From Mobula birostris (lineage: Eukaryota): a stretch of 64,000 nucleotides of DNA. Below the pieces are notes generated by a model. It did no database searches. It was not told the DNA's origin and was given only the letters and a program-made list of their open reading frames with translations. The translations under genes were made by a program, and so were the position numbers. Shown here piece after piece: positions 1,325-57,820 of this stretch. The stretch is from contig NC_092383.1 of assembly GCF_030028105.1 (NCBI RefSeq), positions 71,533,313 through 71,597,312 on the forward strand, given 5' to 3'. The stretch's first letter is position 1; every line of letters starts with the position of its first letter.

Positions 1325-1861
1325 CATTCAGTGGCTGCTTTATTAGGTACCTCCTGCACTTAATAGAGGCCACTGCGTGTATGTGCATGGTATTCTGCTG
1401 CTCTGCTATAGCCTATCCACTTCAATGTGTTGTGCATTCAGAGATGCTCTTCTGCACACCACTGTTATAATGTATGTTATTTGAGTTATTGTTACCTTCC
1501 TCTCGACTTGAACCAATCTGGCCATTCTCCTCTGTCCTCTGTCATTAACGAGGCACTTTTGCTCACTGGACTTTTTTAAAATTTTGTTTTTCACGCCATT
1601 TTCAGTAAACTCTAGAGACTGTTGTGCATGAAAATCCAAGAGATCAGCACTTTCTGAGATACTCAAACCACTCCGTCCAGCACCAACAATCATTCCACAG
1701 TCAAAGCCACTTATATCACATTTCTTGCCCATTTTGATGTTTGGCCTGAACAACAACTAAACTTCTTGACTACGTCTACAGGCTTTTCTGCATTGAGTTA
1801 GTGCCACGTGACTGGCTGATTAGATATTTGCATTAATGAGCAGGTGTTTAGCCACTATGTG
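1325..1861 (-). mobile_element. Non-autonomous Tc1-like DNA transposon with transposase N-terminal remnant
   Basis: TA|cattcagtggc ... gccactatgtg|TA termini. The minus ORF 1406-1756 (MGKKCDISGFDCGMIVGAGRSGLSISESADLL) resembles a Tc1 HTH N-terminus. The left end carries a doubled palindromic TIR. Confidence 0.8.
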
Positions 1862-1979
1862 TATATCATACTGGTAAATAGTACTCACTTTAATCAGATG
1901 TACAGTAATTGGGATCTGAAAATTAAGGTTATCACAAAGAAAATTAATTTAGCACAAACAAAAACAAATTTCTCATATA

Positions 1980-3375: not shown

Positions 3376-3377
3376 GA

Positions 3378-3665
3378 CAGCACGGTAGTGTAGTGGTTAG
3401 CACAACACTTTACAGTACCAACTTCCCAGGTTCAATTCCCGACACTGCTTGTAAGGAGTTTGTATGATTTCCCTGTGACTATATGGGTTTATTCTCAGTG
3501 CTGCAGTTTCTTCCCACAGTCCAAAGACGTACTGGCTGGTAGGTTAATTGGTCAATTTGTCATTTTAAATTGTCTTGTGATTCGGCAAGGTTAAATTGGG
3601 GGATTGCTGGACAGGGATGCTCGAAGGGTTGGAAGGGCCTATTCTGTGCTGCCCCTCAATAAATA
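3378..3665 (+). mobile_element. V-SINE/HE1-like tRNA-derived SINE
   Basis: A box tagtgtagtgg, B box ggttcaattcc, and central domain ggagtttgtatg...cccacagtccaaagacgt...aggttaattgg characteristic of V-SINEs. Confidence 0.7.
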
Positions 3666-3678
3666 CATTCATTTAGGC

Positions 3679-3746
3679 CAGGGATTCCCAAACTTGTTTA
3701 AGCCATGGACCAGATGGATCCGTGGATCCCGGGTGGGCAACCCCAG
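3679..3746. mobile_element. 68-bp hAT MITE
   Basis: TIR-like ends cagggattcccaa / ggcaaccccag. 8-bp TSD atttaggc (3671-3678) / atctaggc (3747-3754). Confidence 0.7.
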
Positions 3747-6094
3747 ATCTAGGCAGACAAACAACCTAGACACAAGGTACAGGAGCCTGAAACTCCACAG
3801 TCAGTGGTTCAGGAACAGCTTCTTATCCTCAGCCATCGGATTTCTGAACAGTTCATGAATTCATGAACATCATCATCATCATTACACCACCTGGCCCAGG
3901 GGTGACCTGTAGGCTAGCAGAGGGAAGGAGACCCTTACACCTCCTTTGGTAGAGACCCATCTCCACCCCGCCACCCATGAGCACACCCTCATTATTCCTT
4001 TACTTTTGCACTGTTTAGTTTTGTAATTTGCACCTTTGCACTTTTCTGCTGCTGCAAAACAACACAGTTCACATCATGTAATTCAGTGCTAATAAATCTG
4101 ATTCTGAACGGGATCAAATGCAAGCAGATTCAATTAGTTCATATTGGCATTTGGTCAGCATACAGATGGTAGGCTGTAGGACCTTTCTGTGTGTAGTGAT
4201 ACTCTATGTTCACAACTATACATATATATATAAATCAATTTTGTCAGGTGAAGCAATTCAGTAATAATATCAATCTGTAATAATTCCTTGCAAGTGGAAC
4301 AAATTTTTAATGATTGAAAAATGTGCACATTAGTCATGAAACCTGGATCATGTGTGTTTTTCCATAGTAACTGTACGCAATCTTGAAAGGTACAAGTGGC
4401 ACGGAAATATGTGGCTCACCTCCACCCATGTTCTTAATGACAACTGTGCCTCAATACATGGTAATTGATGTCACCGTTCTGCATATAGTGACAGCCATGT
4501 GTAGATGCATCAACATGACAGCAGGTGCAAGTCAATTCCCTATTGAGTGGCGGGTATGTACTGAAATGTTGATCAATTTTGCGTTACCGATTTTTGCAAT
4601 CGAATTCCTGTGTCAATGCCTCCAACATCCTTGCATTTTAAAAGACTTCAATGTGCATCTTATTATCAGACCTGGTCGTCTTCGGCTCATGTGATTCTTT
4701 ATTTTCCTGATGTGAACAGGTGTGTGTATTTGTATGCTACCTGAGAAAGAAAGTCATAAAAGATGTTTAGTGTGTGTTCTGAAGAGGCTGCTCCCTTCTA
4801 TTATACACAGTAACTCATGAAGCCATCAGTGGATTTAGTCAAATTGAGCAGTAGATCTTACACATCAACGCAACATGTTCCAGCTTCCTCACTGACTTTA
4901 ATGTCATAAAGACATCAAGAGACTTCCTTGTTGGTGATATTAGCTCATCATTTAACTTGCAAAATTAAATTAAAAACAAATGAATAAAATGCTGTTACCT
5001 AAATCTCTTACTGGATTGCTGGAAGGGTTTATTTTAAAGGATTTTATCTTTTGATTTGTGAAGTCAGGTTAGCATGTTTGAACTCTTTTCATTTGTATGC
5101 TCATACAACATTCTTCCTTCTGATCTATTAAACAAATATGAATGTCCAGCAAGTAAGGTTGTTAGTGCCTGCCTAGAAGTAGGTTATATTGGTGATATGA
5201 AACCACCAAATACTTAGTGCTTAACCTGGCCCCAAATATTCTTAATAAATCAAGTGCTTCCAATTGTTAAAATCCAGATTCAATCTGAATAAATCATGAA
5301 GCTTTTGTGTAGTCTGTTATGCAGATACTGGAAAAATATTCACCATGTAGGAACTGATGATATTTTAAATTCCACAGCATTGTTTTCTGTGTAAATCAGG
5401 CATTGGCAGCAGAACAGTCTGTTGTATGGAGTCTGAGCTTGAAGTCATGGTAGCCTTTCTTGTACAGAATCAAGGCATTTTTTTTCTCTCTAGTTGCCTA
5501 TTCCATGAATTATGACTTTTGCATAAATTTTACTGTGTGAACCTCTACTTTATCATAATTTTCTTGTCAAGTTAGTCAAATATAAATTTTATCAACTCTC
5601 AGCCAAAGGAAAATATTGCCAGAATTTGCATTAAATTGCAGAAGCAAGTCACTATGAAAAAAAAGCAATGTGCTTGTTAAACTGTGCTTTATTAAAAAAA
5701 TCAATCATATCCCTTCCAATAGCTTTAAGAATTTAACTTAACAATTAGATGACCCATAGAGGTAAATCTAAGCCCAGACCTATTTCTGGATTCCATCTTT
5801 TGATCATCTATCTATGTGCTATGATGTCTGATTTCATCTGATAAAGTGAGGCTAGACGTTTTGTAGTGTTGTAGGAGTTTTATATGTTGTTGCTGTAATA
5901 GTTGATGTAGGCCATGATGATAAACCCTGGCTGGCCTTATGTTTAGCAGATTTCAGATAGATGTGCCTTTGTCTTCGAGAGTTTGATTTAGCCCTGTAAA
6001 CAAGAAAACTGTGGGGTTTGGTAACTAATTAAGGCTGATGTGCTTCAGTCTCATCTGATGACAGATTTGGCTTAATTTTGATTCAGTCTGTTGA

Positions 6095-10440: not shown

Positions 10441-12545
10441 AGTTTACTTTACTTTATTGTTGACAAACAATTGATACTAGAATGTACAATCATCACAGCA
10501 ATATTTGATTCTGCGCTTCCTGCTCCCTGGACTACAAATATTAAATATTAAAAATATTAAAAGTAGTAAAAATTAGTAAACATTAAAAAATTAAATTATA
10601 AATCATAAATAGAAAATAGAAAAATGGAACGTAAGGTAGTGCAAAAAAACCGAGAGGCAGGTCCGGATATTTGGAGGGTACAGCCCAGATCCGGGTCAGG
10701 ATCCGTTCAGCAGTCTTATTACAGTTGGAAAGAAGCTGTTCCCAAATCTGGCCGTACGAGTCTTCAAGCTCCTGAACCTTCTCCTGGAGGGAAGAGGGAC
10801 GAAAAGTGTGTTGGCTGGATGGGTCGTGTCCTTGATTATCCTGGCAGCGCTGCTCCGACAGCATGCGGTGTAAAGTGAGTCTAAGGATGGAAGATTGGTT
10901 TGTGTGATGTGCTGCGCCGTGTTCACGATCTTCTGCAGCTTCTTTCGGTCTTGGACAGGACAACTTCCATACCAGGTTGTGATGCACCCCAGAAGAATGC
11001 TTTCTACAGTGCATCTATAAAAATTAGTGAGGGTTTTAGGGGACAGGCCAAATTTCTTTAGTTTTCTCAGGAAGTAAAGGCGCTGGTGGGCCTTCATGAC
11101 AGTGGACTCTGCTTGGTTGGACCAGGTCAGGTCATTTGTGATATTGACCCCGAGGAACTTAAAGCTTTTGACCTGTTCCACTTGCGCACCACCAATGTAA
11201 ATTGGGTCGTGCGGTCCACTACTCCTTCTGAAGTCAACAACCAATTCCTTCGTCTTATTGACGTTGAGGGAAAGGTTATTGTCTTCGCACCATGCCACCA
11301 GGTTCTTAATTTCCTTTCTGTACTCAAACTCATCATTACCCGAGATACGGCCTACAATCGTTGTGTCATTAGCAAACTTATATATTGAGTTTGATGGAAA
11401 CTTGGCTACACAATCATGGATGTACAGTGAGTACAGCAGGGGGCTGAGTACACAGCCTTGTGGGGCACCGGTGCTCAGAGTGATTGTAGAGGAGAGCTTG
11501 TCCCCTATTTTTACAGCCTGGGTCCTGTCTGTGAGGAAGTTGAAGATCCAGCTGCAGATCTGAGTGCTAAGGCCCAGGTTCCGGAGCTTAGGAATCAGTT
11601 TATTTGGAATGATGGTATTAAAGGCAGAGTTGTAGTCAATGAAAAGGAGCCTTATGTATGCATCTTTATTCTCCAGGTGTTCTAAGGAGGAATGTAGGGC
11701 CAGAGAGATGGCATCTGCCGTTGACCTGTTGCTCCAGTAGACGAATTGCAAAGTGTCGAGGTTGACCGGTAGGCTGTGGTTGATGTGTGCCATAACCAAT
11801 CTCTCGAAGAACTTCATAGCAATTGATATCAGAGCCACAGGTCGATAGTCATTCAGGCATGCCACCTTGCTCTTCTTTGGCACTGAGATTATCGTTGCCT
11901 TCTTAAAACACGAGGGGATCTTAGACTGAAGCAAGGAGCAGTTGAAGATGTCAGCAAACACTCCAGCTAGCTCGCTTGCACAGGCCCGGAGAACCCATCT
12001 TGGGATGGCATCTGGGCCCGTCGCCTTCCCTGGATTTATCTTCAGGAAGGCCCTTCTAACATCCTCCTCAGTGATGATGAATCTCGATGCCACCAGGTCC
12101 GGTTCATCCGGAGGGAGCTCCTCTTCTGTTCGAATCTTGTGTAGAATTCGTTAAGTTCATCAGGAAGAGAAGCGCCACAGTTATTGATATTCCCAGCCTT
12201 TTCTTTGTGCCCAGTGATCTCATTTAGACCCTGCCATAGTCTACTGGCATCCCTCTGGTTAGCCTGGGCTTCTAACTTGGCTTGATATTGCCTCTTGGCA
12301 CCCTTAATGGCTTTCCGGATTCATGCCTGGATTCCGTGTGGCGACTGGTATCCCCGGACCTAAAAGCTGCAGCTCTAGCCTTTAAAAGGGACTTGACCTC
12401 ATAATTCATCCAAGGTTTCCAGTTAGGGAATACCCGGATCGTCTTGCGAGACACACAGTCCTCCATGCATTTCCAAATAAAGTCCATGACAGCTGAGGCA
12501 TACTCATCGAGGTTAGCTGCTGAGTCCTTGAATACTAACCAGTCT
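10441..12545 (-). mobile_element. 5'-truncated Rex1/Babar-clade LINE inserted in Penelope
   Basis: 465-aa RT ORF 10696-12093 plus upstream fragment. The 3' end is aataaagtaagtaaact. Penelope sequence resumes on both sides. Confidence 0.85.
10696..12093 (-). CDS. Non-LTR reverse transcriptase (Rex/Babar-like), catalytic motif altered (KFAND)
   Basis: [73 protein letters not shown]. Confidence 0.85.
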
Positions 12546-13166
12546 GCTTTCCTACGCAACTCCCTTGTCAATACCTATGCTCTGACTTCCAGAAAAAGCA
12601 GGAATTCCCAGTGGCCATCCATTTCAATTCTACTTCCTATTCCCGTTCTGACATGTCAGTCCATGGCCTCCTCTACTGCTACAATGAGGCCACACTCAGG
12701 TTGGAGGAGCAACACCTTGTATTCCATCCAAGTAGCTTCCAACCTGATGGTGTGAACATCGATTTCTCAAACTTCTGGTAATTGTGCCCCCTCTCCTTCA
12801 CCTTATCTCGTTACCTGCCCATCACCTCCCTCTGATGTTTCTCCCCCTTCCCTTTATTCCATGGGCTTTTGTCCTGTCCTATCAGATTCCGCCTTTTCCT
12901 GCCCTTTATCTCTTTGACCCATCATCTTCCCAGTTCTTCACCCCTCCCCTATCCCGGTTTCACATATCACCCACCACCTTGAATAACTTTCTCCCCTCTC
13001 CCATCTTCTTGCTCAGGCCTTTCATCCTTTTTCCCCAGTTCTGATGAAGGGTCTCGGCCCAACACATCTTCTGTTGCTCTTTTCCATAGATACTGCTTGG
13101 TGTGCTAGGTTCCTCCAGCATTTTGTGCATGTTGCTTGGATTTCCAGTATCTGCAGATTTTCTCAT
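12546..13166 (+). mobile_element. Penelope 3' part (GIY-YIG remnant plus pseudo-LTR)
   Basis: cacactcaggttggaggagcaacacc...aacatcgatttctc and ctgatgaagggtctcggccc, followed by the pLTR end gttcctccagcattttgtg...tctgcagattttctc. Confidence 0.8.
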
Positions 13167-20289: not shown

Positions 20290-23200
20290 GCAAAGCCAGG
20301 AACCAAAAGGTTGAGCATGGTGCGACTAATGTCCTGAACTGTGTACAATGCAAGAAGTATCGAATGCAAGGCCAATGAGCACAGGGCATGAATCAACATC
20401 TATGATATTATGATATTGTAGCCATTAGTGAGAATTGGTTCCCGGAAGGACAGAACTGACAGCTGAATATTCTGGGGTTCTGTTGTTTTAGACACGACAG
20501 AACAGGAGAGATTTAAGGAAGAGGAGTGGCGTTACTAGACAGGGAAAATGTCACAGCAGTGCTCAGTCAGGACAGACTGTAGAACTTGTCTAGTGATGTG
20601 TTAAGGGTGGAATTGAGGAATAAGGAAGATATGATCACATTAAGACCTTCAGATATAGGAGCAGATTTGGGCCATTTGGCCCCATTAAGTCTGCTCTGCC
20701 ATTTTATCATGACTGATCCAATTTTCCTGTCAGCCCCAATCTCCTGCCTTCTCTCAAATCCCTTCATGCCCTGACCAATCAAGAATCTATCAATCTCTGC
20801 CTTAAATACACATAAAGACTTGGCCCCCACAGCTGCCTGTAGCAAAGAATTCCACAGATTCACCACTCTCAGGGTAAAGAATTTCCTCCTCATCTCCATT
20901 CTAAAAGGACACCCCTCTATTCTGAGGCTGTGTCCTCTGGTCGTACACTCTCTCACCATAGGACACATCTTCTCCACGTCTACTCTATCAAGCCCTTTCA
21001 CCATTGGATAGGTTTCAATGAGACCCCTCATTCTTCTGAATTCCAACGAATACAGGCCCAGAGCCATCAAACACTCTTCATATGAAAAGCCATTCAATCT
21101 TGGAGTCTATTTCATGAACCTCCTTTGAACCTCTCCAGTTTTAGCAGATCCTTTCTAAGATAGGGGACATAAAGCTGCTCACAATACTCCAAGTGAGCCT
21201 CATCAGTGCTTTATAAAGTCTCAAAATTACATCCTTGCTTTTATATTCTAGTCCTCTTGAAATGAATGTTAACATTGCATTTGCCTTCCTCACTACATAC
21301 TCAACCTGCAAATTAACCTTTAAGGAATCCTACACAAGGATAGCCAAGTTCCTTTGCACCTCAGGTTTTTGTATTTTCTCTCCACTTATAAAATAGTCAA
21401 CCCTTTAATTTCTTCTACCGAAGTGCATGACCATACACTTCCCAACACTGTATTCCATCTGCCATTTCTTTGCTCACAGTCCTAATCTGTCTAAGTCCTT
21501 CTGTAACCACTCTACTTCCTCAAAATTACCTTCCCCTCCACGTATCTTCATATCATCTACAAAACTTGCAACAATGCCATCAATTCTAACAAACAAAAAC
21601 CGAGCAACACACACAGTGCAGGAGAAACTCAGCAGGCCAGGCAGCATCTATGGAAAACAGTACAGTCGATGTTTCGGGTTGAGAACCCTTGGCAGTCCAT
21701 CATCCAAGTCGTTGACATATAACATAAGAAGAATTTGTTCCACAGACACCTGTGGAACACCACTAGTCACTGACAGCCACCCTGAAAAAACTCCTGTTAT
21801 TCCCACTCTTTACCTCCTGCCAATCAGCCACTGCTTTATCCATGCTAGAATCTTTTCTGTAATACCATGTTAAGCAGCCTAATGTGTGGCACCTTGTCAA
21901 ATGCCTTCTGAAAATCCAAGTACACAACATCAACTGATTCTCCTTTGTCTATTCTGCTTGTTATTTCTTCAAAGAATTCCAACAGATTTGTCAGGCTAGA
22001 TTTTCCCTTGAGGAAATCATGCTGACTATGGTCAATTTTATCATGTGCCTCCAAGTACCCTGAGAACTCATCATTAATAATGGACTCCAACATCTTCTCA
22101 ACCACTGCGGTCAGACTAACTGTCGTATAATTTCCTTTCTTCTGCTGCTCTCCTTTCTTAAAGACTGAAGTGATATTTGCAATTTTCCAGTCTTTTGGAT
22201 CCATTCCGGAATCTAGTGATTCTTGAAAGATCGTTACTAATGCTTCCACAATCTGTTCAGTCATCTCTTTCAGAACTCTGGGGTGTACACCATCTGGTCC
22301 ATGTGACTTATCTAACTTCAGACCTTTCAGTTTCCCAAGAATCTTCTTCCTGGTAATGGTAACTTCACACACTTCATGCCCCTGCCAATGTCTTCCAAAG
22401 TGAAGACTGATGCAAAATACTTATTCAGTTCATCTGCTATTTCATTGTCCCCCATTACAACATCTCCAGCATCATTTTCCAGTGGTCTGATATCCACTCT
22501 TCACTGTCTTTTACACTTTATGTATCTGAAGAAGCTTTGGTATCCTTTTTTAATATTATTGGCTAGTTTACTTTCGTATTCCGTCTTTGCATTCTTAATG
22601 ACCTTTCTAGTTGTTTTTTCGTTGGTTTTTAAAAGCTTCCCAATCCTCGAACTTCACCCTGATTTTTGGTCTATTATATGCTCTGCCTTCGGCTTTTATG
22701 TTGACTTTGACTCATCTTGTTAGCTATGGTTTTGTCATCTTTCTTTTAGAGTACTTCTTCCTCTTTGGGATGTATATACCCTGTGCCTTCCATTAATGGT
22801 GCTAAATTACAGACCACCCAAATGTCTGAGAGATTTAGAGGAACATATTTGCAGAGAGATCGCTGACTGTTGCAAAAAACATAAGGTTGTTATAGTAGGT
22901 GATTTTAAATTTCCACGTATTGACTGGGATTCCCTTATTGTAAAAGGAATAGATGGGATAGAGTTTGTCAAATGTGTCCAGGAAAGTATCCTTAATCGGT
23001 ACGTAGAAGTCCCAACGAGAGAGTGCACGATACCTGATCTGCTATTTGGAATGAGACAGGGCAGGTGACAGAAGTTTGTGTAGGGGAACACTTTGCATCT
23101 AGTGATTACAATGCCATGAGTTTCAAAGTAGATGTGCAAAAAGTTAGATCCTATCTGTAGTTGATATCCTAAATTGGAGAAAGTCCAATTTTGATGGTAT

Positions 23201-27959: not shown

Positions 27960-29647
27960 TAATAATGTTATGTATTACATTGTACTGCTGCCAGAGAAAA
28001 AAAAATCATGACATGTGAGTGATGATAAACCTGATTCTGATATGGGTCTCTATTGTGGACTGAGAATGGGGAAGGTGCAGGGAGAGGGGAATCACGCGTG
28101 GGAAAAGGCGAAGGGAGAGTAGAGGGAGCAGAGAGTAGGACAGCATGTAATTGCAGCATGTTTGGTCTAGTGTGGATATGTAAATACTATGACCTGTTGA
28201 CACTTAAGACCATAAGACATAGGACCAGAATCAGGCCTATCATTCCATTGGGTCTGCTCCTCTGATTTACTTTCCCTCTCAAACCCATTCTCCTGTCTTC
28301 TTCCCATAACCTTTGACACCCTTACTAATCAAGAACCGATCAACCTCAGCTTTAAATATACCCAATGACTTGGCAAAGAACTCCACAGATTTGCCTCCCT
28401 CTGGCTAAAAAATGTCTTCCTCATCCTTTTAATAACAATCCTTACAATGCTTCATCAAGTGAGTGTTCCAGTAAACTATTTGTAATCATGGTTATTTATA
28501 AATGAAGGATGTTACCAGTATGTTGGAAGGAATTATTGGCACAATATACCCTATATTCTTCAGATAATTGTCAACTCCAGTTGCATGGTTGAGAAAGAGT
28601 AATAACTACAAATATTGGAAATCTGAAGTAAAAATTGAAAATTCTGCATCTGTAAAAGAAAACCAGAAGATATTTTGGTTAGCAAGCTAATTTTTATTCA
28701 TTCAATTCAGAATTTATATTACTTTCGTTTTGTTAGGCATATGACTGAATAATTAAAATTACTTTTAAATTTGCAACCAACATTTAAGTGGCAATTTATA
28801 TTTCTGTATGCACTTTGATTTTCCCCTTGCATTTGCAAATCCATTCAGGGAATGAAAATATTCACTCTTGTATGGTAATTTTAGTCTATTTTTGCGTATT
28901 GGTTTCTGTTTCATTTCTGCATTGGGCATATCGAATCACTCTTGCATTTGATTCCTTGTGCATTTCTGACAATAAAATGCCATGTTTATGATATATTCTT
29001 AGAGATAACACAAATATAAAAAGATTTTTTTCACAGCAAAGGCCTTTTATATTATATTCCTATTATGGGAATTGCTAGTCAGCCAGTGAGTGCTTTGATG
29101 ATAATCTTTTAGAGTCATTTAATCATAGAGACATGCAACACAGTAAAAGGACCTTATAGTGTACTGTGCCCATGCCAGCCCTTCAGTACATATCTATGCT
29201 AATCCTATTTTCTAGCACTTTGCCCATAGCTTCTCTGCCTAGCCTAGATACTGTTAATGTCCTTTCTTTCTTTTTCAATCTTTTTATAGTTTCATAAAAT
29301 ATAAACATAACTTAGCAATAATACAAATTGTTGGAAATACATTGTTATACTTAAAATGAGTAATTATAAAACCAAGTTGTATAAATTGACAAAACTCCCA
29401 ATCGTGTAGGATAATGAATAGTACAGGACAAAAAAAAACTGGAGAAAAATCATGAAAAAGAAAAAAAATAGAAAAAAAAACAAACCCTACCCCAAAAAAA
29501 AACTAAACAGAATTAGTCAACTAAACTAAAAAGACTTGGGCAATTCTAACAAAGTAAAAATGGAAGAGAAGAAAACCTTAGTGTCAATGACTCCATTCCT
29601 CTCAACCAACAGTACAGAGAAGTGAAGTAAGTTTGGAAATGGTCAAA

Positions 29648-30466
29648 TTACATCATATGAAAATGCTGAATAAATGGCCTCCAAGTTTTTTCAAAGTTAA
29701 TGGAAGGGTCATAAACCACACTTCTAATTTTTTCCACATTCAAACACAACATAGTTTGTGAAAACCAGTGAAATACAGTAGGAGGGTTAATCTCTTTCCA
29801 ATTCAGCAAAATGGATCTTCTAACCACTAAAGTAAGAAATGCAATCATCCAGCGTGCTGAAGATGTTAAATGATTTGAGTCTATCATTGGTAATCCAAAA
29901 ATAGCAGTAATTGGATGAGGTTGTAAGTCTATATTCAAAACGGTTGAAATAATATCAAAAGTATCTTTCCAATATTTTTCCAACAAAGGACATAACCAAA
30001 ACATGTGAGTTAAAGAGGCTATCTCGGAATGACATCTATCATATATAGGATTAATATAAGAATAATAACGAGATAGTTTATCTTTGGACATATGAGCGCT
30101 GTGCACTACTTTAAACTGTATCAACACATGTTTAGCAGATATAGAGGATGAATTAACCAATTGAAGAATTTTTTCCCATTTTTCAATCGGTATAGTAATC
30201 TTAAGTTCTCTTTCCCAATCAGCTTTAATTTTATTGGAAACATCAGGACATAAATTCATAATTATGTTATAAATAATTGCTACAACACTTTTCTGAGAGA
30301 GAGTTAGATCTAAAATTTTTTCCAAAGTATCCATTGGATATGAGTGTGGAAAATTAGGAGAAGCAGTAATTAAAAAGTTTCTAATCTGTAGGTATCTAAA
30401 AAAGTGAGATCTGGGTAAGTTATATTTATTAGAAAGTTGATCAAAAGACATGAAACAATTATCCAA
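29648..30466 (-). pseudogene. L1 ORF2 C-terminal fragment
   Basis: FFRYLQIRNF, IQFKVVH, (C>Y)DRCHSEIASLTHMFWLC, F.KTWRPFI. Confidence 0.85.
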
Positions 30467-31001
30467 CCTAAATCACGAAAACGTACTATACCTTTGGTTT
30501 TCTAGTCAAAGTAAGCTTGATCCATAGTGGAAGGTTGAAAAAGGAAATTAGATATAATAGGACTTACTAAAATAAATTGATTGAACCCAAAAAATCTTTA
30601 TTAAAAATCATTATTCATCCTTTAATATTAGGAGGTTAATGTATATTGTTTATATCCCCTCACTTATTACCCCAGAATGTATTATCTCATTAGATGCTGA
30701 GAAAGCCTTTGACAGAGTTGAATGGCCTTATTTATTTAGTGTGCTCGAGAAATTTAATTTTAGTTTGACGTTTATATCTTGGATTAAATTGTTATATTAT
30801 TCCCCGGTAGCTTCAGTTTGTACTAATAATCAAAGATCTCCCTTTTTTCATCTTTTTCGTGGTACTAGGCAAGGATGCCCTCTTAGTCCTTTACTATTTA
30901 ATATCACCCTTGAACCTTTAGCAATTGCTATCCGTGACTCGCCCAATATTTTTGGTATTACCCACGGAAACGAAATAAATAAATTATCACTATATGCAGA
31001 T

Positions 31002-31648
31002 AACACACATACATCAAAGTTGCTGGTGAACACAGCACGCCAGGCAGCATCTCTAGGAAGAGGTGCAGTCGACGTTTCAGGCCGAGACTCTTCGTCAGGA
31101 CTAAATGAAGGAAGAGTGAGTAAGGGATTTGAAAGTTGGAGGGGGAGGGGGAGATCCAAAATGATAGGGGAAGACAGGAGGGGGAGGGATGGAGCCAAGA
31201 GCTGGACAGGTGATAGGCAAAAGGGGATACGAGAGGATCATGGGACAGGAGGTCCGGGAAGAAAGACAAGGGGGGGGAACCCAGAGGATGAGCAAGAGGT
31301 ATATTCAGAGGGACAGAGGGAAAAAAAGGAGAGTGAGAGAAAGAATGTGTGCATAAAAATAAGTAACAGATGGGGTACGAGGGGGAGGTGGGGCCTAGCG
31401 GAAGTTAGAGAAGTCGATGTTCATGCCATCAGGTTGGAGGCTACCCAGACGGAATATAAGGTGCTGTTCCTCCAACCTGAGTGTGGCTTCATCTTTGCAG
31501 TAGAGGAGGCCGTGGATGGACATGTCAGAATGGGAATGGGATGTGGAATTAAAATGTGTGGCCACTCGGAGATCCTGCTTTCTCTGGCGGACAGGAACTT
31601 TGATGTGTGTTGCTTGAATTTCCAGCATCTGCAGAATTCCTGTTGTTT
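31002..31648 (-). mobile_element. Penelope 3' fragment/pLTR with short inverted end and 13-bp TSD
   Basis: Minus ORF with ATHFNS...RLEEQHLIFRLGSLQPDGMN (GIY-YIG C-terminus). TSD actatatgcagat at 30989-31001 and 31649-31661. Confidence 0.9.
31066..31103 (-). ncRNA. Minimal type I hammerhead ribozyme motif (Penelope pLTR)
   Basis: Minus strand reads agtc-CTGACGA-agagtctcggcct-GAAAC-GTC-gact. Confidence 0.7.
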
Positions 31649-32906
31649 ACTATATGCAGATGATTTGTTATTATATATCTCTAATCCGGAGAAGTCAATT
31701 CCTACTATTCTAGCTTTGTTGGCTCAATTTAGTAATTTTTCTGGCTACAAATTGAATTTTAATAAGATTGAATTATTTCCCCTAAATAAGCAGGTACCTA
31801 TTTATGGATGTTTACCTTTTAAATTGGTTACTGACTCATTTATATATTTAGGGATAATAATTACGAAGAGGTATAAAGGCTTATTTAAAGCTAATTTTTT
31901 ACCTTTAATTGATCAGATTAAACTTTTGTTTACTAAATGGTCACCAATTTCTTTGTCTTTGATTGGTCAGATTAATGCTATTAAGATGATTATTTTGCCC
32001 AAATTTCTATATGTATTTCAACCGGTTCCAATTTTTATCCCAAAATCTTTTTTCGATAATGTTGATTCAAAAATTTCCTCATATATATGGCAGAACAAAA
32101 ATCCTAGGCTAGGTAAAAGGTATTTACAGAAATCTAAAAAGGAGGGGGGGGCTCGCCCTCCCAAATTTTAGATTTTATTATTGGGCAATTAATATTCGAT
32201 ACTTAAAATTTTGGTTAGGAGATTTGGATGTATCTTTAAATCCACATTGGGTAAATCTTGAATGTAATTCATTACAAGGTCTTCTTTGGGTTCGGTTTTA
32301 GGAACTTTGTTTCCTTTTATTTCTTCTAAATTGTATAAACAAATGTTTATGTCCTTAACATACAAAAAAAATCCTGCTCATTGTTCTCCTTAATAGCCAC
32401 TAACCGGAATGAATAGTCGTATTGGAGATACCAGGAGGTACGGTGTGTGGCACATTGTGCACTAGACTCCTGAAGCAGCAAATAATTTAAGAAATTGGAA
32501 GGTGATGGGGTTTACAGAAAGAAAGAAACTGCAGTAGTTTGTCAGTGTGAGAAGAAATGCGTTCACGCTAGGCATAATTGAACGAGAAAGAAAGATAAGG
32601 TAGGGTCTAACATCAATGACTCCATGTGACTTCAAATGGTAGTTGGCACAGAGCCTGTCAGGACCAAAGCAGCATAAAGGAAGGTTGTTATTACATCTCT
32701 ATTGTCCCAGCAATTCGAACACTTTGGACTCACTTGACAAAATCAGGAAAACAGATCATTTGTCATGAATTAAGACTACAAGCACTATTATCTGAAATCA
32801 TTATATAGGTTATTGGAAGCCTTGGTCATCCCTTTAACAATCCAGTAGTTAAAGTTTAACTACTGAATGACTAATTTTCCCTGTCTCAGAGTGCTTGAAG
32901 ACAATA

Positions 32907-33850
32907 CAGTGGATTCCAATTATTTGGGACAGCCACTTATTTGGGACAACCTTTAAAAAAAACAAAAACTAAATGAGAAAATATCTGGGGTTTCCTTTGT
33001 TTATTTGGGACACTATGCCACTCAGTTGGGGTGAAAACTTGCTGACCAGTTTTTAACTAGTCAGTTGCATGTGCTCGTGTGGCCGTTAGACACTACACCG
33101 TGCTTAGAGCGAACAGTTTTTAAATGGCATCAGTTGCATGTGTTTGTCTTCAAAAAGCAGTAATTTCTGTCACTGATAGTTGGTGAGAAATTAGCAGTAA
33201 GACAATTCAGAACTATTTTGCTCACTGTGATTTCAATCATTCAGACTCAGAGGTGCGAGAAATGGCTGGGAGTGAATATGAAATGATTTCCCCACTTCAG
33301 CAAATTAGGAAGTATAAAAAATTTGAAGGCATCAACAATCATATCAAATGTTACAATGAAAATGAAGATTTGGAGCATGCAACTGTTTGTGTGGCCATGA
33401 GACACCTCACTGTGCTTAGAGCAAACAGCATCAGTTGCATATGCGTGTGTTCTATCATTCATTTGGACCAAGAAATGATGAATTAAAAAGCAGAAAAATG
33501 TTGACACTATTTCATGAAAGAAGACAATATAGGCAGTCCATTATATGCATTAAGTGTCTGCACTGAATTTATTCACTTACACTCAGTCAAAAGAACATGG
33601 TAGCGTACACTGGATTAATTCCTCCATAGATAACTGTTAGGAACTAGTAAACAGTTTTACAGTACTGTAGTAATATTGGTAGTTCTAATTTGTTCTGTAT
33701 TTAATTTAAATATGTAATTTGTTACTTAGTTAAATGATAGTTTCTTTTTTATGCCTTCTATTTGCATGAAATATTGACTAATTGGGCCAGCCACTTAATT
33801 GCACCAAAATGTACTAGTCCTGATGTGTTCCAGTTAACTGGAATCCACTG
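32907..33850. mobile_element. Tigger/pogo-like non-autonomous DNA transposon
   Basis: TA|cagtggattcca ... tggaatccactg. Subterminal repeats tttgggaca. Confidence 0.7.
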
Positions 33851-35396: not shown

Positions 35397-37067
35397 TTAA
35401 TAATCCCCTAAACCAGGCTCCAACTTAGCAAACTTCATAGTGGCCGAAAACACTGATGAATTGCGATCAGTGTAACCTCTCACTGGGTTTCGTCCCGGAC
35501 CACGATAACAAGGGTCGTCCCATCCCGACTTAGTTTTCTCTCGCAAGGGCTTAGTAGGAGGGGGAGGGGTAGTAACTGCAGAGTTATTGCAAAACTTCCT
35601 ACAGTACCCCACCATCTCCAAGAGCCTTCTGAGGACCCTCTTGTCTGTCGGGGTTCGGATGTCAGAGATAGCCCGCACTTTAGCTTGCATCGCTGCCAGC
35701 TGCCCCTGTGTTACCACAATTCCCAGATAAGTGACCTTCGTGTGGCCGAACTCATTTTTTTCAAGGTTCACTATCAAGCTGGCTTCAGACAGCCGTATCA
35801 CATCGCCAATACATACTTCTGTGTTCGTTAGCCCTTTCGTCACTGAATTACTCATTCTATAGGGCTGTTGCTCACTAGGCTGACCTAGCATGACAAACAC
35901 CACCCAACATCCCAGTTCCTTGCATCGCCTCAGGATAATCAAACACACGCGTGCGAGCCGTTTAATTACTTCTCCTAAAGAGTCGCTTTGTTCGGGGATT
36001 AAGGGAGAGACCTTATCGGCAGAGCTGGCCAAAACAATAACCTTCTCCCATCTGGTTGATACCATACTCATCTTTTCAAAATGTTTTTTTTCTCTTATCA
36101 GGGGGACCCTAGCTTCATTGATTTCCGTGCTAACACCGACTAGGTTTGTTAGCATATCGAAAGCCTGTGACCGTCTCAGTTCGCGTCTGCCATAATCAAT
36201 AACATCCTTCCTCCTGTGCAGCCAGTAAACCTCTTTCATGGTTCCGCCAACTGTTTCCTTCAGCACCTCAAAATGCCCACCGAGGGGTACCTTGTGGGCC
36301 AGGTTAAAAATCTCATCCCCAGAGATTTTCGGCACCATCCCCCATTCCTCATCTGCGGTACTTGGTCTCCCTTCCTTCCTTAGCACACCCTTCTCCACAC
36401 AATAGCCTACTGGCTCTCTTTTTAATCCTGCTTCAGAGAGAGCAGTTTCCTCATCTCGCTTCTGTACCTGTATAAAGTCCTTCTTTTCTACTGATAAATC
36501 TACCTTAATTTCCCCACTTCCTCCTGTTTCATTACGTTCCTTCTTTGCACTTTCTACCCCTTCCTCGTACAAGGCTGGCAGAAACGTCTCAGCTAAATTT
36601 ACTTCGGCAGTCCCGGGATGAACCTGTGAGTCCATGGGCGGGGCCTCAATGCTGGCAGGCTGACCTGTCAAGCTCACTGTCGAGAACACAATTCCCCCGG
36701 CGAGGTCATTACCGAGCAAGACTTCCACGCCTTTCATCGGTAATTCGGACCTCACTCCGATCGTGACTAGTCCAGAGACCAAGTTGCTTTGTAGGTGTAT
36801 CTGGTGCAAAGGGACTGCCTCTGTCCCTTCCCCAATACCTTTGACCCTGACCTCCCCAGTCTGGGTCTCTGAACTAAACTCTAATACACTCTTCAATATC
36901 AATGACTGACACGCTCCCGTGTCTCTCCAGATCCGCACTGGTACTGGGTTTAACCCCTCCTTCACCGACACCAATCCGGCCGAGATAAACCTCTCACACC
37001 CTTCCTGAACTTTGGCAGACCTTTCCTCTCCTAGCGGTTCGTTTACCAGCTCAATACAGCCAGTCAA
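35397..37067 (-). CDS. Pol remnant: aspartic protease plus degenerate IN and RT pieces
   Basis: VRIWRDTGACQSLI...LLGNDLAGG (PR), AHKVPLGGHF (IN zinc-binding remnant), QQPYRM, CIGDV (lost YxDD), VTYLGIVV, RRLLEMVGYCRKF. RNase H tail ITHIKGAENVIADCLSR in another frame at ~35340-35400. Confidence 0.85.
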   Translation of the reverse strand: MTGCIELVNEPLGEERSAKVQEGCERFISAGLVSVKEGLNPVPVRIWRDTGACQSLILKSVLEFSSETQTGEVRVKGIGEGTEAVPLHQIHLQSNLVSGLVTIGVRSELPMKGVEVLLGNDLAGGIVFSTVSLTGQPASIEAPPMDSQVHPGTAEVNLAETFLPALYEEGVESAKKERNETGGSGEIKVDLSVEKKDFIQVQKRDEETALSEAGLKREPVGYCVEKGVLRKEGRPSTADEEWGMVPKISGDEIFNLAHKVPLGGHFEVLKETVGGTMKEVYWLHRRKDVIDYGRRELRRSQAFDMLTNLVGVSTEINEARVPLIREKKHFEKMSMVSTRWEKVIVLASSADKVSPLIPEQSDSLGEVIKRLARVCLIILRRCKELGCWVVFVMLGQPSEQQPYRMSNSVTKGLTNTEVCIGDVIRLSEASLIVNLEKNEFGHTKVTYLGIVVTQGQLAAMQAKVRAISDIRTPTDKRVLRRLLEMVGYCRKFCNNSAVTTPPPPTKPLREKTKSGWDDPCYRGPGRNPVRGYTDRNSSVFSATMKFAKLEPGLGDY

Positions 37068-37069
37068 AG

Positions 37070-38265
37070 TCGCCGTTTTTCCTTTTCCCGTCTCCTTTGG
37101 GGCAAAGCACCTGGACGCAAAGTGTCCGACTTTCCCACAATTATAACAGACGACCCCAGGAGACTTCCTACCAGACTGCTCCCGGTCTACCTTATCCTTC
37201 TCACTAGTCCCCGGCTTACTTTCTGACTTTTCTGGCGGACTCTCCCCACCGTCCTGACTACGTTCTGGTAGCCTTTACTCGGGACAAACTTCATTCTATG
37301 CGTCAACGCGTACTCATCTGCTAACTTAGCAGTTGCGGCTAACGTGGCTGCCTCTTTCTCGTCTAGGTAGGGTCTCATACCTTCAGGGACACAACCTTTA
37401 AACTGCTCAATCAGGATCAGCTGTAGCAGTCTGTCATAATCCCCATCCACCCCCTTCGAGGCGCACCAATGCTCACAATATGTCTGCATCTCACGGGCAA
37501 ACTCTAAATACATGCGGTCCCACTGCTCCCTCGCATTCCGGAACCTCTGCCGGTATGCCTCCCGGACCAACTCATAAATCCTGAAGATGGCCTCTTTCAC
37601 CACCTCATACCTCTGGGCATCTTCCGCGGACAAAGCTGAGTAAGCTTGTTGGGCTTTCCCTTTAAGTACACTCTGAAGCAAAACAGCCCACTTATCCCTC
37701 GGCCAGTCCTGACTTATAGCCACTTTTTTGAAATGGAGAAAGTACCGATCCACATCGGTATCGTCAAATGGGGGAACCAGCCTAACCTCCTGGGTCGGCC
37801 TGAACCCTCCACCTTGGTTCGGGATGGGCCCCTGCGCTGCCATCATCTTTAACTTCTCCAGCTCAAATTCCCTTTCCCTCTCCTCTTCTCGCTCCAACTG
37901 TTTATCCCTCTCTTCTCGCTCCAACTGTCTCTCTCGCTCTCTCTCCCCTGCCGTTCTAACTGTTTCTCTTTCTCTTCGTGTTCTAGCGGCCATACCCGGA
38001 ACTTGTACTCGAGTCTCAGCTTTTCAAGCTGCACCTGTACCGCGTCTCCAGCAGATTTTTCAATAGATATCACCTCCAGCTCCCCTTGGAGAAACACACC
38101 TTTAGATACATAGTGCTCTACGATAGCTCTGTGCATCTGCTCTCTCCTCATTGTCGACTTCCCCTTAACAAGATATAACCGCTTGGCCACAGCTGCCAAT
38201 TCCACTTTCCTGGCATCCTCTAATGCCTCCAAGGTCGGCGCCTTTAGAAATTCCTCAATCTCCAT
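37070..38265 (-). pseudogene. Gag with SCAN-like capsid domain and CCHC knuckle (frameshifted)
   Basis: VPPFDDTDVDRYF...LKGKAQQAY...EAYRQRFR...LILIEQFKGCVP. CYNCGKVGHFASRC encoded at ~37108-37150. Confidence 0.85.
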
Positions 38266-38364
38266 TTCTGCTGTTTGCCTTTTCTTTCTTTCGGGAATTT
38301 TAACCCAATCAATTTACTCCGTCCCAAATTTAGCGTTCAAAATCGCGGACGAGAACCCCACTTA

Positions 38365-42547: not shown

Positions 42548-44107
42548 CAAACCCCATTTCCAGAAAAGTTGGGATATTTTCCAAAATGCAATAAAAACAA
42601 AAATCTGTGATATGTTAATACACGTGAACCTTTATTTAACTGACAAAAGTACAAAGAAAAGATTTTCAATAGTCTTACTGACCAACTTAATTGTATTTTG
42701 TAAATATACACAAATTTAGAATTTGATGGCTGCAACACACTCAACTAAAGTTGGGACAGAGTTAAAATAAGATTGAAAAGTGCACAGAATATTCAAGTAA
42801 CACCGGTTTGGAAGACTCCACATTAAGCAGGCTAATTGGTAGCAGGTGAGGTATCATGACTGGGTATAAAAGTAGCATCCATCAAGGGCTCAGTCTTTGC
42901 AAGCAAGGATGGGTCGTGGCTCAGCCCTTCATGCCAAAATTCGTGAGAGAATTGTTAGTCAGTTCAAAAGGAACATTTCTCAACACAAGATTGCAGAGAA
43001 TTTAGGTCTTTCAACATCTACAGTACATAATATTGTGAAAAGATTCAGAGAATTCAGAAACACCTCAGTGTGTAAAGGGCAAGGTCGGAAACCACTGTTG
43101 AATGCGCGGCACTGCCTAAGAAACCGTCATGCTACTGTGACAATTATAGCCACCTGGGCTCGGGAGTACTTCGGAAAACCATTGTCACTCAACACAGTCT
43201 GTCGCTGCATCCAGAAATGCAACTTGAAACTGTATTATCAAGGAGGAAGCCATACATCAACTCTATGCAGAAGCGCCGGTGAGTTCTCTGGGCCCGAGCT
43301 CATCTCAGATGGACCGAAAGACTGTGGAACCGTGTGCTGGGGTCAGATGAGTCCACATTTCAGCTAGTTTTCGGAAAAAATGGGTGTCGAGTTCTCCGTG
43401 CCAAAGATGAAAACACCATCCAGATTGCTATTAGCGAAAGGTGCAAAAGCCAGCATCTGTGATGGTATGGGGGTGCATCAGTGCCCACGGCATGGATGAA
43501 TTCATGTATGTGAAGGTACCATTGACTCTGAGGCGTATATTAGGATTTTAGAGAGACATATGTTGCCATCAAGGCGGCGTCTCTTCCCGGGACGTCCATG
43601 CTTATTTCAGCAGAACAATGCCAGACCACATTCTGCACGGACTACAACAGCGTGGCTTTGTAGACACAGAGTGCGTGTGCTTGACTGGCCTACTGCCAGT
43701 CCAGATCTATCTCCTATTGAAAATGTATGGCGCATCATGAAGAGGAGAATCAGACAACGGAGACCACGGACTATTGAGCAGCTGAAGTCTTATAAACAGC
43801 AAGAATGGACAAAATTTCCAATTGCCCTCAGTTCCAAAATGATTAAAAAGTGTTATTAAAAGGAAAGGTGATGTAACACAATGGTAAACATGCCTCTGTC
43901 CCAACTTTTGTTGAGTGTGTTGCAGCCATCAAATTCTAAATTTGTGTATGTTGACAAAATACAATTAAGTTGGTCAGTAAAACCATTGAAAATCTTTTCT
44001 TTGTACTTTTGTCAGTTAAATAAAGGTTCATGCGAATTAACATATCACAGATTTTTGTTTTTATTGCATTTTGGAAAATATCCCAACTTTTCTGGAAATG
44101 GGGTTTG
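42548..44107 (+). mobile_element. Near-full-length Tc1 (DD34E) transposon with ~210-bp IR/DR-type TIRs
   Basis: TA TSD in an atgTA/TAcat palindromic site. TIRs caaaccccatttccagaaaagttggga... at ~42548-42759 and ~43895-44107, each with an inner aaagttggga repeat. Confidence 0.95.
42909..43887 (+). pseudogene. Tc1 transposase pseudogene
   Basis: MGRGS...STVHNIVKRF...GRKP, SDESTF, FQQ(D>N)NARPH-34aa-E in WPTASPDLSPIENVW. Several frameshifts. Confidence 0.9.
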
Positions 44108-54699: not shown

Positions 54700-55640
54700 A
54701 GCATACAAGATTATCTGGCACAGCATACACACTCTCTAGGACACATTGGAGTGTAAAAGGTGATGAACAGATTCTCCCAATGGTGATGGAATCCACAAGC
54801 TCAGGGCACAAGCTCTACAAACTTTTGAAAGATGCATGACATACCAGAAAAAAAAATCCTGGAGCAGGGGAAAAGCTACCACAATTAAGTGCTCCTGCTC
54901 CACCTGGACAATCTTCACACTTTCAAGTGGGCTACATTTCTTTACCAAAGTGTCAAGGATACTCAGTCGTACTGGTAATAGTAGACAAATTTTCAAGATG
55001 GAAGCTATTCCAGTAAGAAAAGCCACTGCCACTCACACAGCAAAAATCCTGGTCAAGGACAATATTCCTAGATGGGGATTGTTATGTCACATCAAGCCTG
55101 ACCAAGGAACACATTTCACTGGGAGTATTTGTCAGGAATTATGTCAACTGATGGACATTAAATGGTCTATCATTGTCCACATCACCCAGCGGCATCAGGA
55201 TAAGTCAATTGAATAAAACGAATCATCAAACAATGACTGACTAAGTATCATGAAGAGGATGTACCATGGCTTATAACTCTTCCTCTGGTGTTGGGGAGCG
55301 CCAGAGCAGGGCATCCTACATCACTGCTGGGAGCCCTCAATCTCAGAGAGGCTGATATGCACATTATGGGAGACAGTTTAGTTAACTATTGTGTGAAATT
55401 AACTCTAGCTGTACAGTCTGCTTCTCAGAAGGTTTCTGCTGCTTGGAATGGTCCAACAGAAGGAGGACAAACTCTGATTCCTGGTAAGTGGGCACTGATT
55501 AAGAAACCACATAAGGATCCACTGACAGCTCGATGGGAAGGTCCCTGTCAAGTGCTGTTAATTACCAACTTGCTGGTGAAAGTAGAAGGTAAAAGTAAGT
55601 GGATACACGCCAGCCACGGCAAACAAGCTAAAGTGGTACC
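54700..55640 (+). pseudogene. Retroviral integrase remnant
   Basis: VLVIVDKFSRW, PVRKATATHTAKILVKDNIPRWG...DQGTHFTG, ARWEGPCQVLLIT...VKVEGKSKWIHASH. Confidence 0.9.
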
Positions 55641-55762
55641 TGTGAAAGACAATGAGCACATGGTTAATGTGCGAGTAACCTCTGAACCCAATGCCTGCAT
55701 GGCTGGGCTACAGTGAGTAACCAGCCAGAAGACATCAAGCAAGTCGACAACTACTTGACATT

Positions 55763-57820
55763 ATGAAATTCACTCTAATATTATTTGTTGTAGTTATATT
55801 TTTGCCAATTTTCACCACTCACAATGTATCAGCTGAGATGTCTCATAATGCATGCTTGCGGATATCTCATGAATTTGTTGATGCTGTTAATGCCTCTAGC
55901 TGTTTGGTAAATTAATATGTACCACACACATCAAAATATTCACCCATGCTCGGCATTCCTCCAGATTCAGAACAAACACGCATCCTCTTTATTAAACATT
56001 CCAACAAAGGCGATGTTACATTATGCCTATGATTCATTACTCTCAAGGGATTTATTTATATATATATAATGATCATAACCCCCACATACCATCTTGAATT
56101 GGATCACTTATGTAAATGTAATCAGCATGATTTAGAAAATCATATCATATCTGACCCTATTCATGTCTTATCCTGGGTGACATCTATATCTGTATTTAAT
56201 TTTTCATGTGTTCACTATAAAAGCTACCTTTTGCTTAACTTCAGAAGGCACCATTCCAGTAAGGCATAGTTCATGCAATTATACTTTGCATTGTCCTAAA
56301 TGGGGTAATGACTCTGGAATTTTCATTGACAATCAGAGAAATCTTACAATTCATCATAGCCCCTTTGATGTAGTGTCTTGGTCTGAATCAAAGTTCATGG
56401 AATAATACATACTTACACCTCTCTTCCATGTAATTGGTTAGAATTTTGTTATTAAGGTATGTTTTTCCTGCCATGAGGCATGCATGCACCTTATCTTTAC
56501 CTCCCAAGTCTAGATATAAATAAGATATTTTAGAGGGCGATTGTTTGGAACCAATTTTATTCCTATTATATGGTGTTGCAGCCCATCAAACTTGCACACA
56601 TGGGGCAAGGCAGAGTCATCTACATGTCCACTGTGCTCCAAGCGAGGAACCCTGGAGCACATCCTCAGCGGCTGCGCAAGGGCACTTGGTGAGGGACGGT
56701 ACAGGTGGAGGCATGATCAGGTCTTGAAGACCATCACTGAAGCCGTCAGCGCAGGAGTTGAGTGGGCAAAGCGGTCCCGACCCTCCAAGCAGACCATTGC
56801 CTTTGTCAGAGCTGGGGAGCAGCCAATACGTGCCAAAAGAACATCTGCAGGCATTCTGAACTCTGCAAGGGACTGGCAGCTGTTGGTGGACCTCGCAGGG
56901 CAGCTGAAGTTCCCCAACAATATCGCATCTACCACCCTGCAACCAGACATTGTCCTAGTGTCTGAGTCTACTAAGCCAGTGGTGCTGCTGAAGCTGACAG
57001 TCCCATGGGAAGATAGCTTGGAAGAGGCCTTTGAAAGGAAGCTCTTCAAGTACGCAGGACTGGTCAGCAACTGTCAGCAGGCTGCATGGAGAGCGAGGTG
57101 TCTCCCCGTGGAGGTTGATTGTAGGGGATTCATAGCCCGTTCTTTAGTTCAAGCCTTCAGCATTTTGGGCATTGAGGGAGAGAGGAAAAGGAGAGCCATC
57201 CGCAGTACCACCGATGCGGCAGAGAGGGCCTCAAGATGGCTGTGGCTCAAAAGAGGGGAGCCATGGAGTCATAAGTAGCTAGCCATCTGGGCACAAGCTG
57301 GGGTCTGACCAGCCCCGGCTGGGTCACCTGGAGGAGGTTGTATGATGTTGAAAGACCGGAAACACCCGATGATTCCAGGAACATCACTGAAGATGTGTCC
57401 AGAAGCATCAATAGATGTATGTACACAGAGAGATTAAAAATATGCTGCAAAAAAAAAAGAGTAAGCAATAACATGGCTGATGCCTTTGGAACAGTAACAA
57501 CAGAAATAGTTGTCATGCATAAGATGGTTCTTCAAAATCGTAGAGCATTCAATCTTGTCTTTGCAGTCAAAGCGGGAAACGTGCAGTTATAGGTAAGGAA
57601 TGTTTTACTTATCAGATGAATCAGAAGACATAACTAATTTGACTGATTATATCCATAAATAAGCAGCTAAAATCGGATTCCTTTCTGGATTCATTTAAGT
57701 CTCAGAAGCTGGGATTATGCAGTATAATGAGTAACTTTATTCACATTAATATACCTTATCATTTATATCTTTTTTACTTTTTAAAAGTGATCATAAGCTT
57801 GTGTAAGTATGCCTCCTAAT
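55763..57820 (+). pseudogene. Retroviral env remnant (gamma-type)
   Basis: Signal peptide MKFTLILFVVVIFLPIF, NASSCLV (N-x-S-x-CWVC-like), fusion-peptide-like ILFLLYGVA, ISD VLQNRRAFNLVFA, then AVIGKECFTY (decayed CX6CC) and a hydrophobic TM stretch. Confidence 0.8.
56580..57425 (+). mobile_element. 5'-truncated Hero-like (R2 superfamily, restriction-like endonuclease) non-LTR retrotransposon
   Basis: PSNLHTWG..CPLCSKRGTLEHILSGC (CCHC), RYRWRHDQVL, PDIVLVS, LTVPWE, VEVDCRGF. ORF ends at 57278, followed by a 3' UTR. Confidence 0.85.

What the first reader, a model, noticed from the sequence alone, without database searches (positions are those of the whole stretch)
29252..32356. Twin-priming 5'-inverted L1 in a non-mammalian (probable chondrichthyan) genome
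Seen: the L1 3' half and tail are on the minus strand, and the RT half is on the plus strand, joined head-to-head at ~30597. One 13-bp TSD (1 mismatch) encloses both, with a TT|AAGG target. The RNA-3'-most end of the inverted piece (...SSKLYKQ) abuts the TSD, and the non-inverted piece appears to restart slightly downstream (RFFGFNQF). Known: this is the geometry predicted by twin priming, which is mainly described for mammalian L1 and, as I recall, reported as rare in other vertebrates. Inference: this L1 lineage twin-primes.
Basis: partly seen in the sequence, partly recalled or inferred. Interest (0 to 1): 0.7.

Follow-up and report, generated by a model that had tools for sequence, protein, structure and literature searches.

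The report
Front-flipped L1 copies in cartilaginous fish
A dead L1 jumping gene sits here with its front part turned backwards between two copies of a 13-base target, about one in eight sampled relatives in this probably ray-like fish genome has the same layout, and the likely cause is "twin priming", a copying accident so far described almost only for mammalian L1.

Summary
A 3.1-kb L1-type insertion (29252-32356) has its RT piece on + and its 3' end and tail on -, inside one 13-bp target duplication (TSD). In 29 of 29 nearest genomic copies the RT-side and 3' pieces run in one direction, about 47 nt apart. Both halves differ 2.3% from the family majority, so they come from one RNA. There are 2-nt and 2-3-nt microhomologies at the two junctions. 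A related organism has the empty site with one target copy. The layout recurs: 16 of 136 independent copies sampled by their 3' end are 5'-inverted (12%; 18% of the 89 with a clear TSD, against 31% in human/chimp). All 16 have 12-19-bp TSDs, and 11 of 16 have 2 nt or more of microhomology against 13 of 62 truncated copies. Twin priming is the likely cause; it is inferred, not shown. The host is probably a cartilaginous fish (nearest named proteins: stingray). This is a known mammalian process, now counted in a distant vertebrate. The scan noted similar cases on other DNA (e1-9281833, e1-7941570). Two key zebrafish-L1 papers could not be read.

The parts
29252..29264 (.). TSD copy beside the 3' tail (13 bp)
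   Evidence: the empty site in organism D aligns up to 29264 and resumes at 32362
29265..29276 (-). GAAA-rich 3' tail
   Evidence: the same tail follows the 3' end in the other copies
29265..30598 (-). Non-inverted piece: 3' UTR and ORF2 C-terminus (element 4706-6047); first-strand TPRT product (inferred)
   Evidence: 94.7% to full-length L133; weak zf-RVT hit, E 0.003, below the cut-off
30597..30599 (.). Inversion junction: 2-nt (AA) overlap, 3 nt in family variants; 47 nt of the element missing
   Evidence: loose ends of family contigs stop at 30597 and 30598/30599
30597..31001 (+). Inverted piece, part 1: RT domain up to the YADD codons (element 3563-3967)
   Evidence: RVT_1 E 8e-18; mapping
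31002..31648 (-). Later nested, very high-copy element with its own 13-bp TSD (30989-31001, 31649-31661) and a short inverted end; Penelope-like by recall only
   Evidence: TSD coordinates; absent from all 29 colinear copies; far higher contig depth; no Pfam hit
31662..32345 (+). Inverted piece, part 2: rest of RT and thumb region (element 3968-4658); its end is the likely internal priming site
   Evidence: RVT_1 E 7e-6, below the cut-off; 95.5% to L133
32344..32356 (.). TSD copy beside the inverted piece; its first 2 nt (TG) also match the L1 RNA (microhomology)
   Evidence: the family reads …AAACAAATG|AATAATCC and the window …AAACAAATG|TTTATGTCC

Best explanation
This is one dead, 5'-inverted L1-clade insertion inside a single 13-bp target duplication, likely made by twin priming, and the same layout occurs in about 12% of sampled copies of the family. 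Inferred steps: (1) ORF2p nicked the bottom strand at TT|AAGG and that end primed reverse transcription at the GAAA-rich tail, copying about 1.34 kb. (2) Before it finished, the top strand was cut 13 bp away, and its 3' end (…CA-3') paired with a UG 47 nt upstream of where the first cDNA stopped and primed a second cDNA of about 1.1 kb. (3) The two cDNAs annealed through 2-3 A/T bases and were filled in. (4) Later a different element inserted into the YADD codons. Shown: geometry, TSD, microhomologies, common origin of the halves, empty site and recurrence. Inferred: the two priming events and their order.
For: Halves colinear and about 47 nt apart in 29 of 29 nearest copies. Same age, 2.3% vs 2.3%. 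Empty orthologous site with one TSD copy (X10 record 9). Organism A contigs join the left flank to the tail and the right flank to the internal L1 site; organism B contigs join the right one. Sample by exact 3'-end pattern: 11 of 99 independent copies on contigs C1-C8 and 5 of 37 on later contigs are inverted, with no difference between sets (p 0.77). All 16 have TSDs of 12-19 bp, 10-16 bp after removing the overlap, the 10-20-bp range reported for human inversions (PMC4245944). In 14 of 16 the inverted piece abuts the TSD with no extra bases. Microhomology of 2 nt or more: 11 of 16, against 13 of 62 truncated copies (Fisher p 5e-4) and 17.5% by chance. In 15 of 16 the central junction has a small deletion or duplication, -16 to +48 nt by blast ends. 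In L144, L152 and L087, 6-7 of the last 8 TSD bases match the RNA and the target's own base stands at the mismatch, as expected if the target end was the primer.
Against: No priming event can be seen in DNA; the mechanism is read from geometry. This copy's own microhomologies are short (2 and 2-3 nt), and 2 nt or more arises by chance in 17.5% of joins. 4 of 16 inverted copies have none, 2 of them with 4-7 extra bases. L072 has a 380-nt gap, larger than the rest. TSD lengths include the overlap bases, which inflates the inverted-versus-truncated length difference (p 0.001). The right-junction contigs carry only 28-30 L1 letters beyond the TSD boundary, just under the tool's 31-letter bar (41 if counted from the TSD's outer end). 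X1-X4 may be the source sample of the assembly.
Confidence: 0.92

Rival explanations
1. An ordinary 5'-truncated copy whose front part was later inverted in place by DNA repair or recombination.
For: It would give the same order of pieces. Post-insertion rearrangements do occur in this family: L118 has an internal inverted duplication, and several copies have internal deletions.
Against: One breakpoint would have to fall exactly on the TSD edge; it does so in 14 of 16 inverted copies plus this one. The excess microhomology is between target DNA and the internal L1 site, as priming predicts. Organism B already has the inverted right junction.
Confidence: 0.04
2. Two separate insertions, one landing head-to-head at the edge of the other.
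For: The family has thousands of candidate copies (2662 first-look candidates), and nested insertions are common.
Against: The + piece has no tail and no TSD of its own. It ends 47 nt from where the other piece starts on the same RNA. One TSD encloses both, and both halves are 2.3% from the family majority.
Confidence: 0.02
3. An assembly artefact from collapsed repeats.
For: The family is highly repetitive.
Against: Contigs from organisms A and B join the right flank to the internal L1 site, and A joins the left flank to the tail, in the same opposite orientations. A misassembly would not create a TSD that matches another species' empty site. 16 other loci have the same structure, each with its own TSD.
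Confidence: 0.02

Closest known systems
5'-inverted (twin-primed) L1 insertions of human and chimpanzee (model of Ostertag and Kazazian 2001, not read; seen as described in passages and section 8 of PMC2912911)
   Same: TSD - inverted piece - non-inverted piece - tail - TSD. Microhomology at the 5' and inversion junctions, more frequent in inverted than in truncated copies. TSDs of 10-20 bp. Small deletions or duplications at the inversion junction (figure legend in PMC12350158).
   Different: The host is probably a cartilaginous fish. The tail is GAAA-rich. Target starts are purine-rich but not strictly TT|AAAA. The frequency is lower: 16 of 89 TSD-flanked copies (18%, CI 11-27%) against 639 of 2068 (30.9%), Fisher p 0.009, though sampling methods differ.
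LINE inserts in cultured cells (PMC4245944, passages read)
   Same: Inversions go with long TSDs of 10-20 bp, as here.
   Different: There, 5' inversions came only from human L1 in human cells, plus one zebrafish Nimb-2_DR insert in chicken cells, and the authors concluded dependence on both host and LINE. Here they are regular in the germ line of a non-mammalian host with its own L1.
L1-like ORF2 relatives in the stingray Hypanus sabinus (P0001, P0002, P0004)
   Same: 61-72% amino-acid identity to the C-terminal ORF2 piece.
   Different: They are annotated as parts of host-gene isoforms or uncharacterised proteins; their insertion structure was not examined.

Membership tests
Twin-primed 5'-inverted L1 insertion | One TSD encloses both pieces; the empty site has one copy | tested here: met
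   (X10 record 9: 28407-29264, then 32362-33018, 6 record letters between against 5 in the window)
Twin-primed 5'-inverted L1 insertion | The RNA-3'-most end of the inverted piece abuts the TSD; the non-inverted piece starts nearby on the RNA | tested here: met
   element 4658 abuts the TSD, restart at 4706, 47-nt gap
Twin-primed 5'-inverted L1 insertion | Both pieces come from one RNA (same subfamily and age) | tested here: met
   colinear in 29 of 29 copies; 25/1088 vs 31/1331 private differences; rho 0.72 over 20 copies
Twin-primed 5'-inverted L1 insertion | Microhomology between the TSD end and the internal priming site | tested here: met
   2 nt here (weak alone); family-wide 11 of 16 vs 13 of 62, p 5e-4
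Twin-primed 5'-inverted L1 insertion | Microhomology at the inversion junction | tested here: met
   2-3 nt at 30597-30599; not counted for the other 16 copies
Twin-primed 5'-inverted L1 insertion | TSD of 10-20 bp | tested here: met
   13 bp here; 12-19 bp in 16 of 16
Twin-primed 5'-inverted L1 insertion | Two priming events on one RNA shown directly | not testable with these tools
   needs a retrotransposition or in vitro assay
L1-clade LINE | ORF1 with the L1 RBD-like domain (Transposase_22) | tested here: met
   above cut-off in 3 of 3 ORF1 pieces chosen for (L094, L089, L083); a more N-terminal L133 piece gave only coiled-coil-type hits
L1-clade LINE | ORF2 with APE-type endonuclease, RT and C-terminal zinc region | tested here: met
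   Exo_endo_phos and RVT_1 above cut-off; zf-RVT below cut-off
L1-clade LINE | A-rich 3' tail and 7-18-bp TSDs | tested here: met
   GAAA-rich tail, median TSD 12-13 bp; clade range as cited in PMC6007223
L1-clade LINE | RT phylogeny places it in L1 rather than Tx1 | not tested
   no reference RT set at hand
Chondrichthyan host | Host genes place the genome among cartilaginous fishes | tested here: inconclusive
   only transposon-derived proteins were searched; 3 of 11 hits carry names, all Hypanus sabinus; 4.0-Gb genome
Penelope-like element (nested insert) | GIY-YIG endonuclease domain | tested here: inconclusive
   no Pfam hit for the 83-aa piece at E up to 5; the label is recalled

The most novel reading that the evidence does not exclude
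Twin priming is not a mammalian speciality but an old, general property of jawed-vertebrate L1 elements that make long staggered cuts. It runs at 12-18% of germ-line insertions in a cartilaginous fish, with the same rules as in humans: long TSD and microhomology-guided second priming. Its absence in chicken cells would then be the exception, and 5'-inverted retrocopies should also exist in sharks and rays.
Probability: 0.55. Interest if true: 0.6.

Novelty: new member of a known kind. Interest (0 to 1): 0.45.

Why it matters
Why L1 inverts its 5' end, and whether the element or the host decides this, is open: PMC4245944 found almost no inversions outside human L1 in human cells. A counted, TSD-verified set in a distant vertebrate, with an empty-site control, shows that the same junction rules hold far from mammals. 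It offers a natural comparison for separating ORF2p properties from host repair. The process itself is known, and this copy is dead.

Tried and rejected
Central junction in public contigs: none of the 32 listed records spans 30597 and 207 more were not shown, so this is inconclusive. Rows dropped before counting: L136 and L137 counted once (same site and TSD). L064 was counted as truncated, because its opposite-strand piece is only 74% alike and lies 2.6 kb away. L118 was counted as non-inverted (sense piece next to the TSD, internal inverted duplication). L143 was not counted as inverted (opposite-strand 5' piece 3 kb away, no shared TSD). 47 of 136 copies had no TSD passing the strict rule, and one truncated copy (L114) had no mappable junction. 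The 29 copies were chosen by the RT-side query and are not the frequency sample; some recur in it through their 3' ends. The sample is 137 of the 222 exact matches of one 31-nt 3'-end pattern. The second set needed a longer tail match, and inversions under about 30 bp would be missed. Naming the nested element: Pfam gave nothing; the Atlas was unavailable. Literature: 'twin priming' with 'only in mammals' 0 papers, with 'cartilaginous' 0, with 'zebrafish L1' 2, with 'Anolis' 4; none of the passages read reports inversions in a non-mammalian L1. Searches gave nothing relevant in their listings. Ichiyanagi et al. 2007, Ichiyanagi and Okada 2008, Kojima and Okada 2009 and Ostertag and Kazazian 2001 were not held, and Ichiyanagi and Okada 2006 was not tried, so a prior report in zebrafish cannot be excluded. 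A sequence look-up of earlier scan notes found nothing.

Full report
Anatomy. The window is G000:C18 of a 4.0-Gb genome. A 13-bp repeat with one mismatch lies at 29252-29264 and 32344-32356; on the minus strand the target reads TT|AAGG. Five near-full-length copies of about 6.05 kb were found, and L133 served as the coordinate reference. Window 29270-30598 is element 6047-4706 on the minus strand, with a GAAA-rich tail against the left TSD. Window 30597-31001 and 31662-32345 are element 3563-4658 on the plus strand. A 647-bp unrelated element with its own 13-bp TSD interrupts the YADD codons. Full-length copies carry an ORF1 with Transposase_22 and an ORF2 with Exo_endo_phos, RVT_1 and a weak zf-RVT, which is L1-clade architecture; L1 versus Tx1 was not tested by tree.

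One RNA, two orientations. In 29 of 29 nearest copies the RT-side and 3' pieces run in the same direction with about 47 nt between them; four of these copies are truncated inside the more 5' part. The inverted and non-inverted halves differ from the majority of those copies at 25 of 1088 and 31 of 1331 positions (2.3% each), and their identities to 20 long copies rise and fall together (rho 0.72). The last two L1 bases of the inverted piece (TG) are also the first two of the TSD. The central junction shares AA, or AAA in family variants. Contig loose ends confirm both central breakpoints.

Empty site and reality of the junctions. Four of the 16 listed runs were laid on 28400-33200. One 1938-nt contig of organism D covers 28407-29264 and continues at 32362-33018, so it holds a single target copy and no insertion. 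Organism A contigs cover 28400-29311 (left flank into the tail) and 32316-33014 (internal L1 site into the right flank). Organism B also covers 32316-33020, so the insertion predates the A/B split. No listed contig spans the central junction; the table was cut, so this is inconclusive.

Frequency. An exact 31-nt 3'-end pattern has 222 matches. The first 100 were fetched, and 37 more on later contigs came from a longer pattern. After merging one duplicated locus, 11 of 99 and 5 of 37 are 5'-inverted: 16 of 136, 11.8% (CI 7-18%). Among the 89 with a strict TSD there are 63 truncated, 16 inverted (18%, CI 11-27%) and 10 reaching the 5' end. All 16 have 12-19-bp TSDs (10-16 bp net of overlap), and 14 abut the TSD without extra bases. 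Microhomology of 2 nt or more occurs in 11 of 16, against 13 of 62 truncated copies (p 5e-4) and 17.5% of random joins. Four have none. Central junctions show -16 to +48 nt in 15 of 16 and +380 in L072. Non-inverted parts are 382-1984 nt, apart from L072 at about 154 nt.

Mechanism. The likely route is twin priming: a first nick primes at the tail; a second nick 13 bp away primes internally through short complementarity; the two cDNAs anneal by microhomology. The steps are inferred from the model as described in PMC2912911 (passages and section 8 read). In L144, L152 and L087, 6-7 of the last 8 target bases match the RNA and the target's base is kept at the mismatch, which fits the target end acting as primer. 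Later inversion, double insertion and misassembly are each unlikely for the reasons given under rivals.

Comparison with print. Human and chimp: 639 of 2068 TSD-flanked L1 are inverted, 30.9% (PMC2912911), higher than here (p 0.009; methods differ). PMC4245944 (passages) found inversions only for human L1 in human cells plus one Nimb-2_DR insert, with 10-20-bp TSDs. PMC12350158 (passages) counts 1,047 human cases. Passages of PMC4476161, PMC3747384, PMC6007223 and PMC5389967 and a term search of PMC2881922 gave no non-mammalian L1 inversion. No supplements were read. Searches pairing 'twin priming' with 'cartilaginous' or 'only in mammals' returned 0 papers. The Okada-lab zebrafish papers and the 2001 original were not available, so priority is open. 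Earlier notes of this scan describe similar cases in other genomes, including a cartilaginous fish and a one-in-ten estimate; I did not test them.

Host. The named hits to the ORF2 C-terminus are three stingray (Hypanus sabinus) proteins at 61-72% identity, among 11 hits. This suggests a cartilaginous fish but rests on a mobile element.

Verdict. It is a known process in a little-documented lineage, here with a frequency, junction statistics and an empty-site control. Interest 0.45.

Noticed in passing
window 31002-31648: Nested very high-copy element whose one end carries about 55 nt of its other end in inverted orientation (inverted repeat 31007-31025 / 31592-31610); public contigs show many variable joints here. 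It resembles the inverted pseudo-LTR layout of Penelope-like elements (recalled). Related pieces lie at 58213-58756, 12589-12775 and 21626-21684.
   Followed up: partly
L028 (G000:C13:79173359-79177044): Possible extra inverted copy outside the counted sample: only about 120 nt of 3' end non-inverted, against about 3 kb inverted (element 5945-2981); the TSD is unclear (8-bp match).
   Followed up: partly
L049, L085, L150: Copies in which a 5' or internal piece is joined directly to the 3' end with 2-5 kb missing (for example element 695 to 5579); L049 has a 15-17-bp TSD. They could come from spliced RNA, template jumps or later deletions.
   Followed up: no
L118 (G000:C8:61399800-61407800): TSD-flanked copy with a sense piece, then an inverted duplication of element 5469-5276, then a nested element: a double-switch structure.
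   Followed up: partly
L136 / L137 (G000:C3, about 86 kb apart): The same inverted insertion and TSD at two places, so a segmental duplication; L137 also has a second partial copy of the inverted piece upstream.
   Followed up: partly
window 35397-38313, minus strand: LTR-retrotransposon-like ORFs with SCAN and zinc-knuckle domains; Gmr1-like by recall.
   Followed up: no
window 55237-55716: Fragment with an MLV-type integrase C-terminal domain, a retrovirus-like remnant.
   Followed up: no
window 10696-12150 (-), 20567-22420 (-), 42876-43367 (+), 56520-57278 (+): Other mobile-element remnants: an RT with ALKBH8_N, CR1-like pieces (recalled), a Tc1/Sleeping-Beauty-type HTH, and a C-terminal piece resembling a restriction-like-endonuclease LINE (recalled; no Pfam hit).
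   Followed up: no
P0001, P0002: L1 ORF2 C-terminal sequence is annotated as part of stingray METTL21A and BBS5 isoforms: exonisation or annotation artefact.
   Followed up: no
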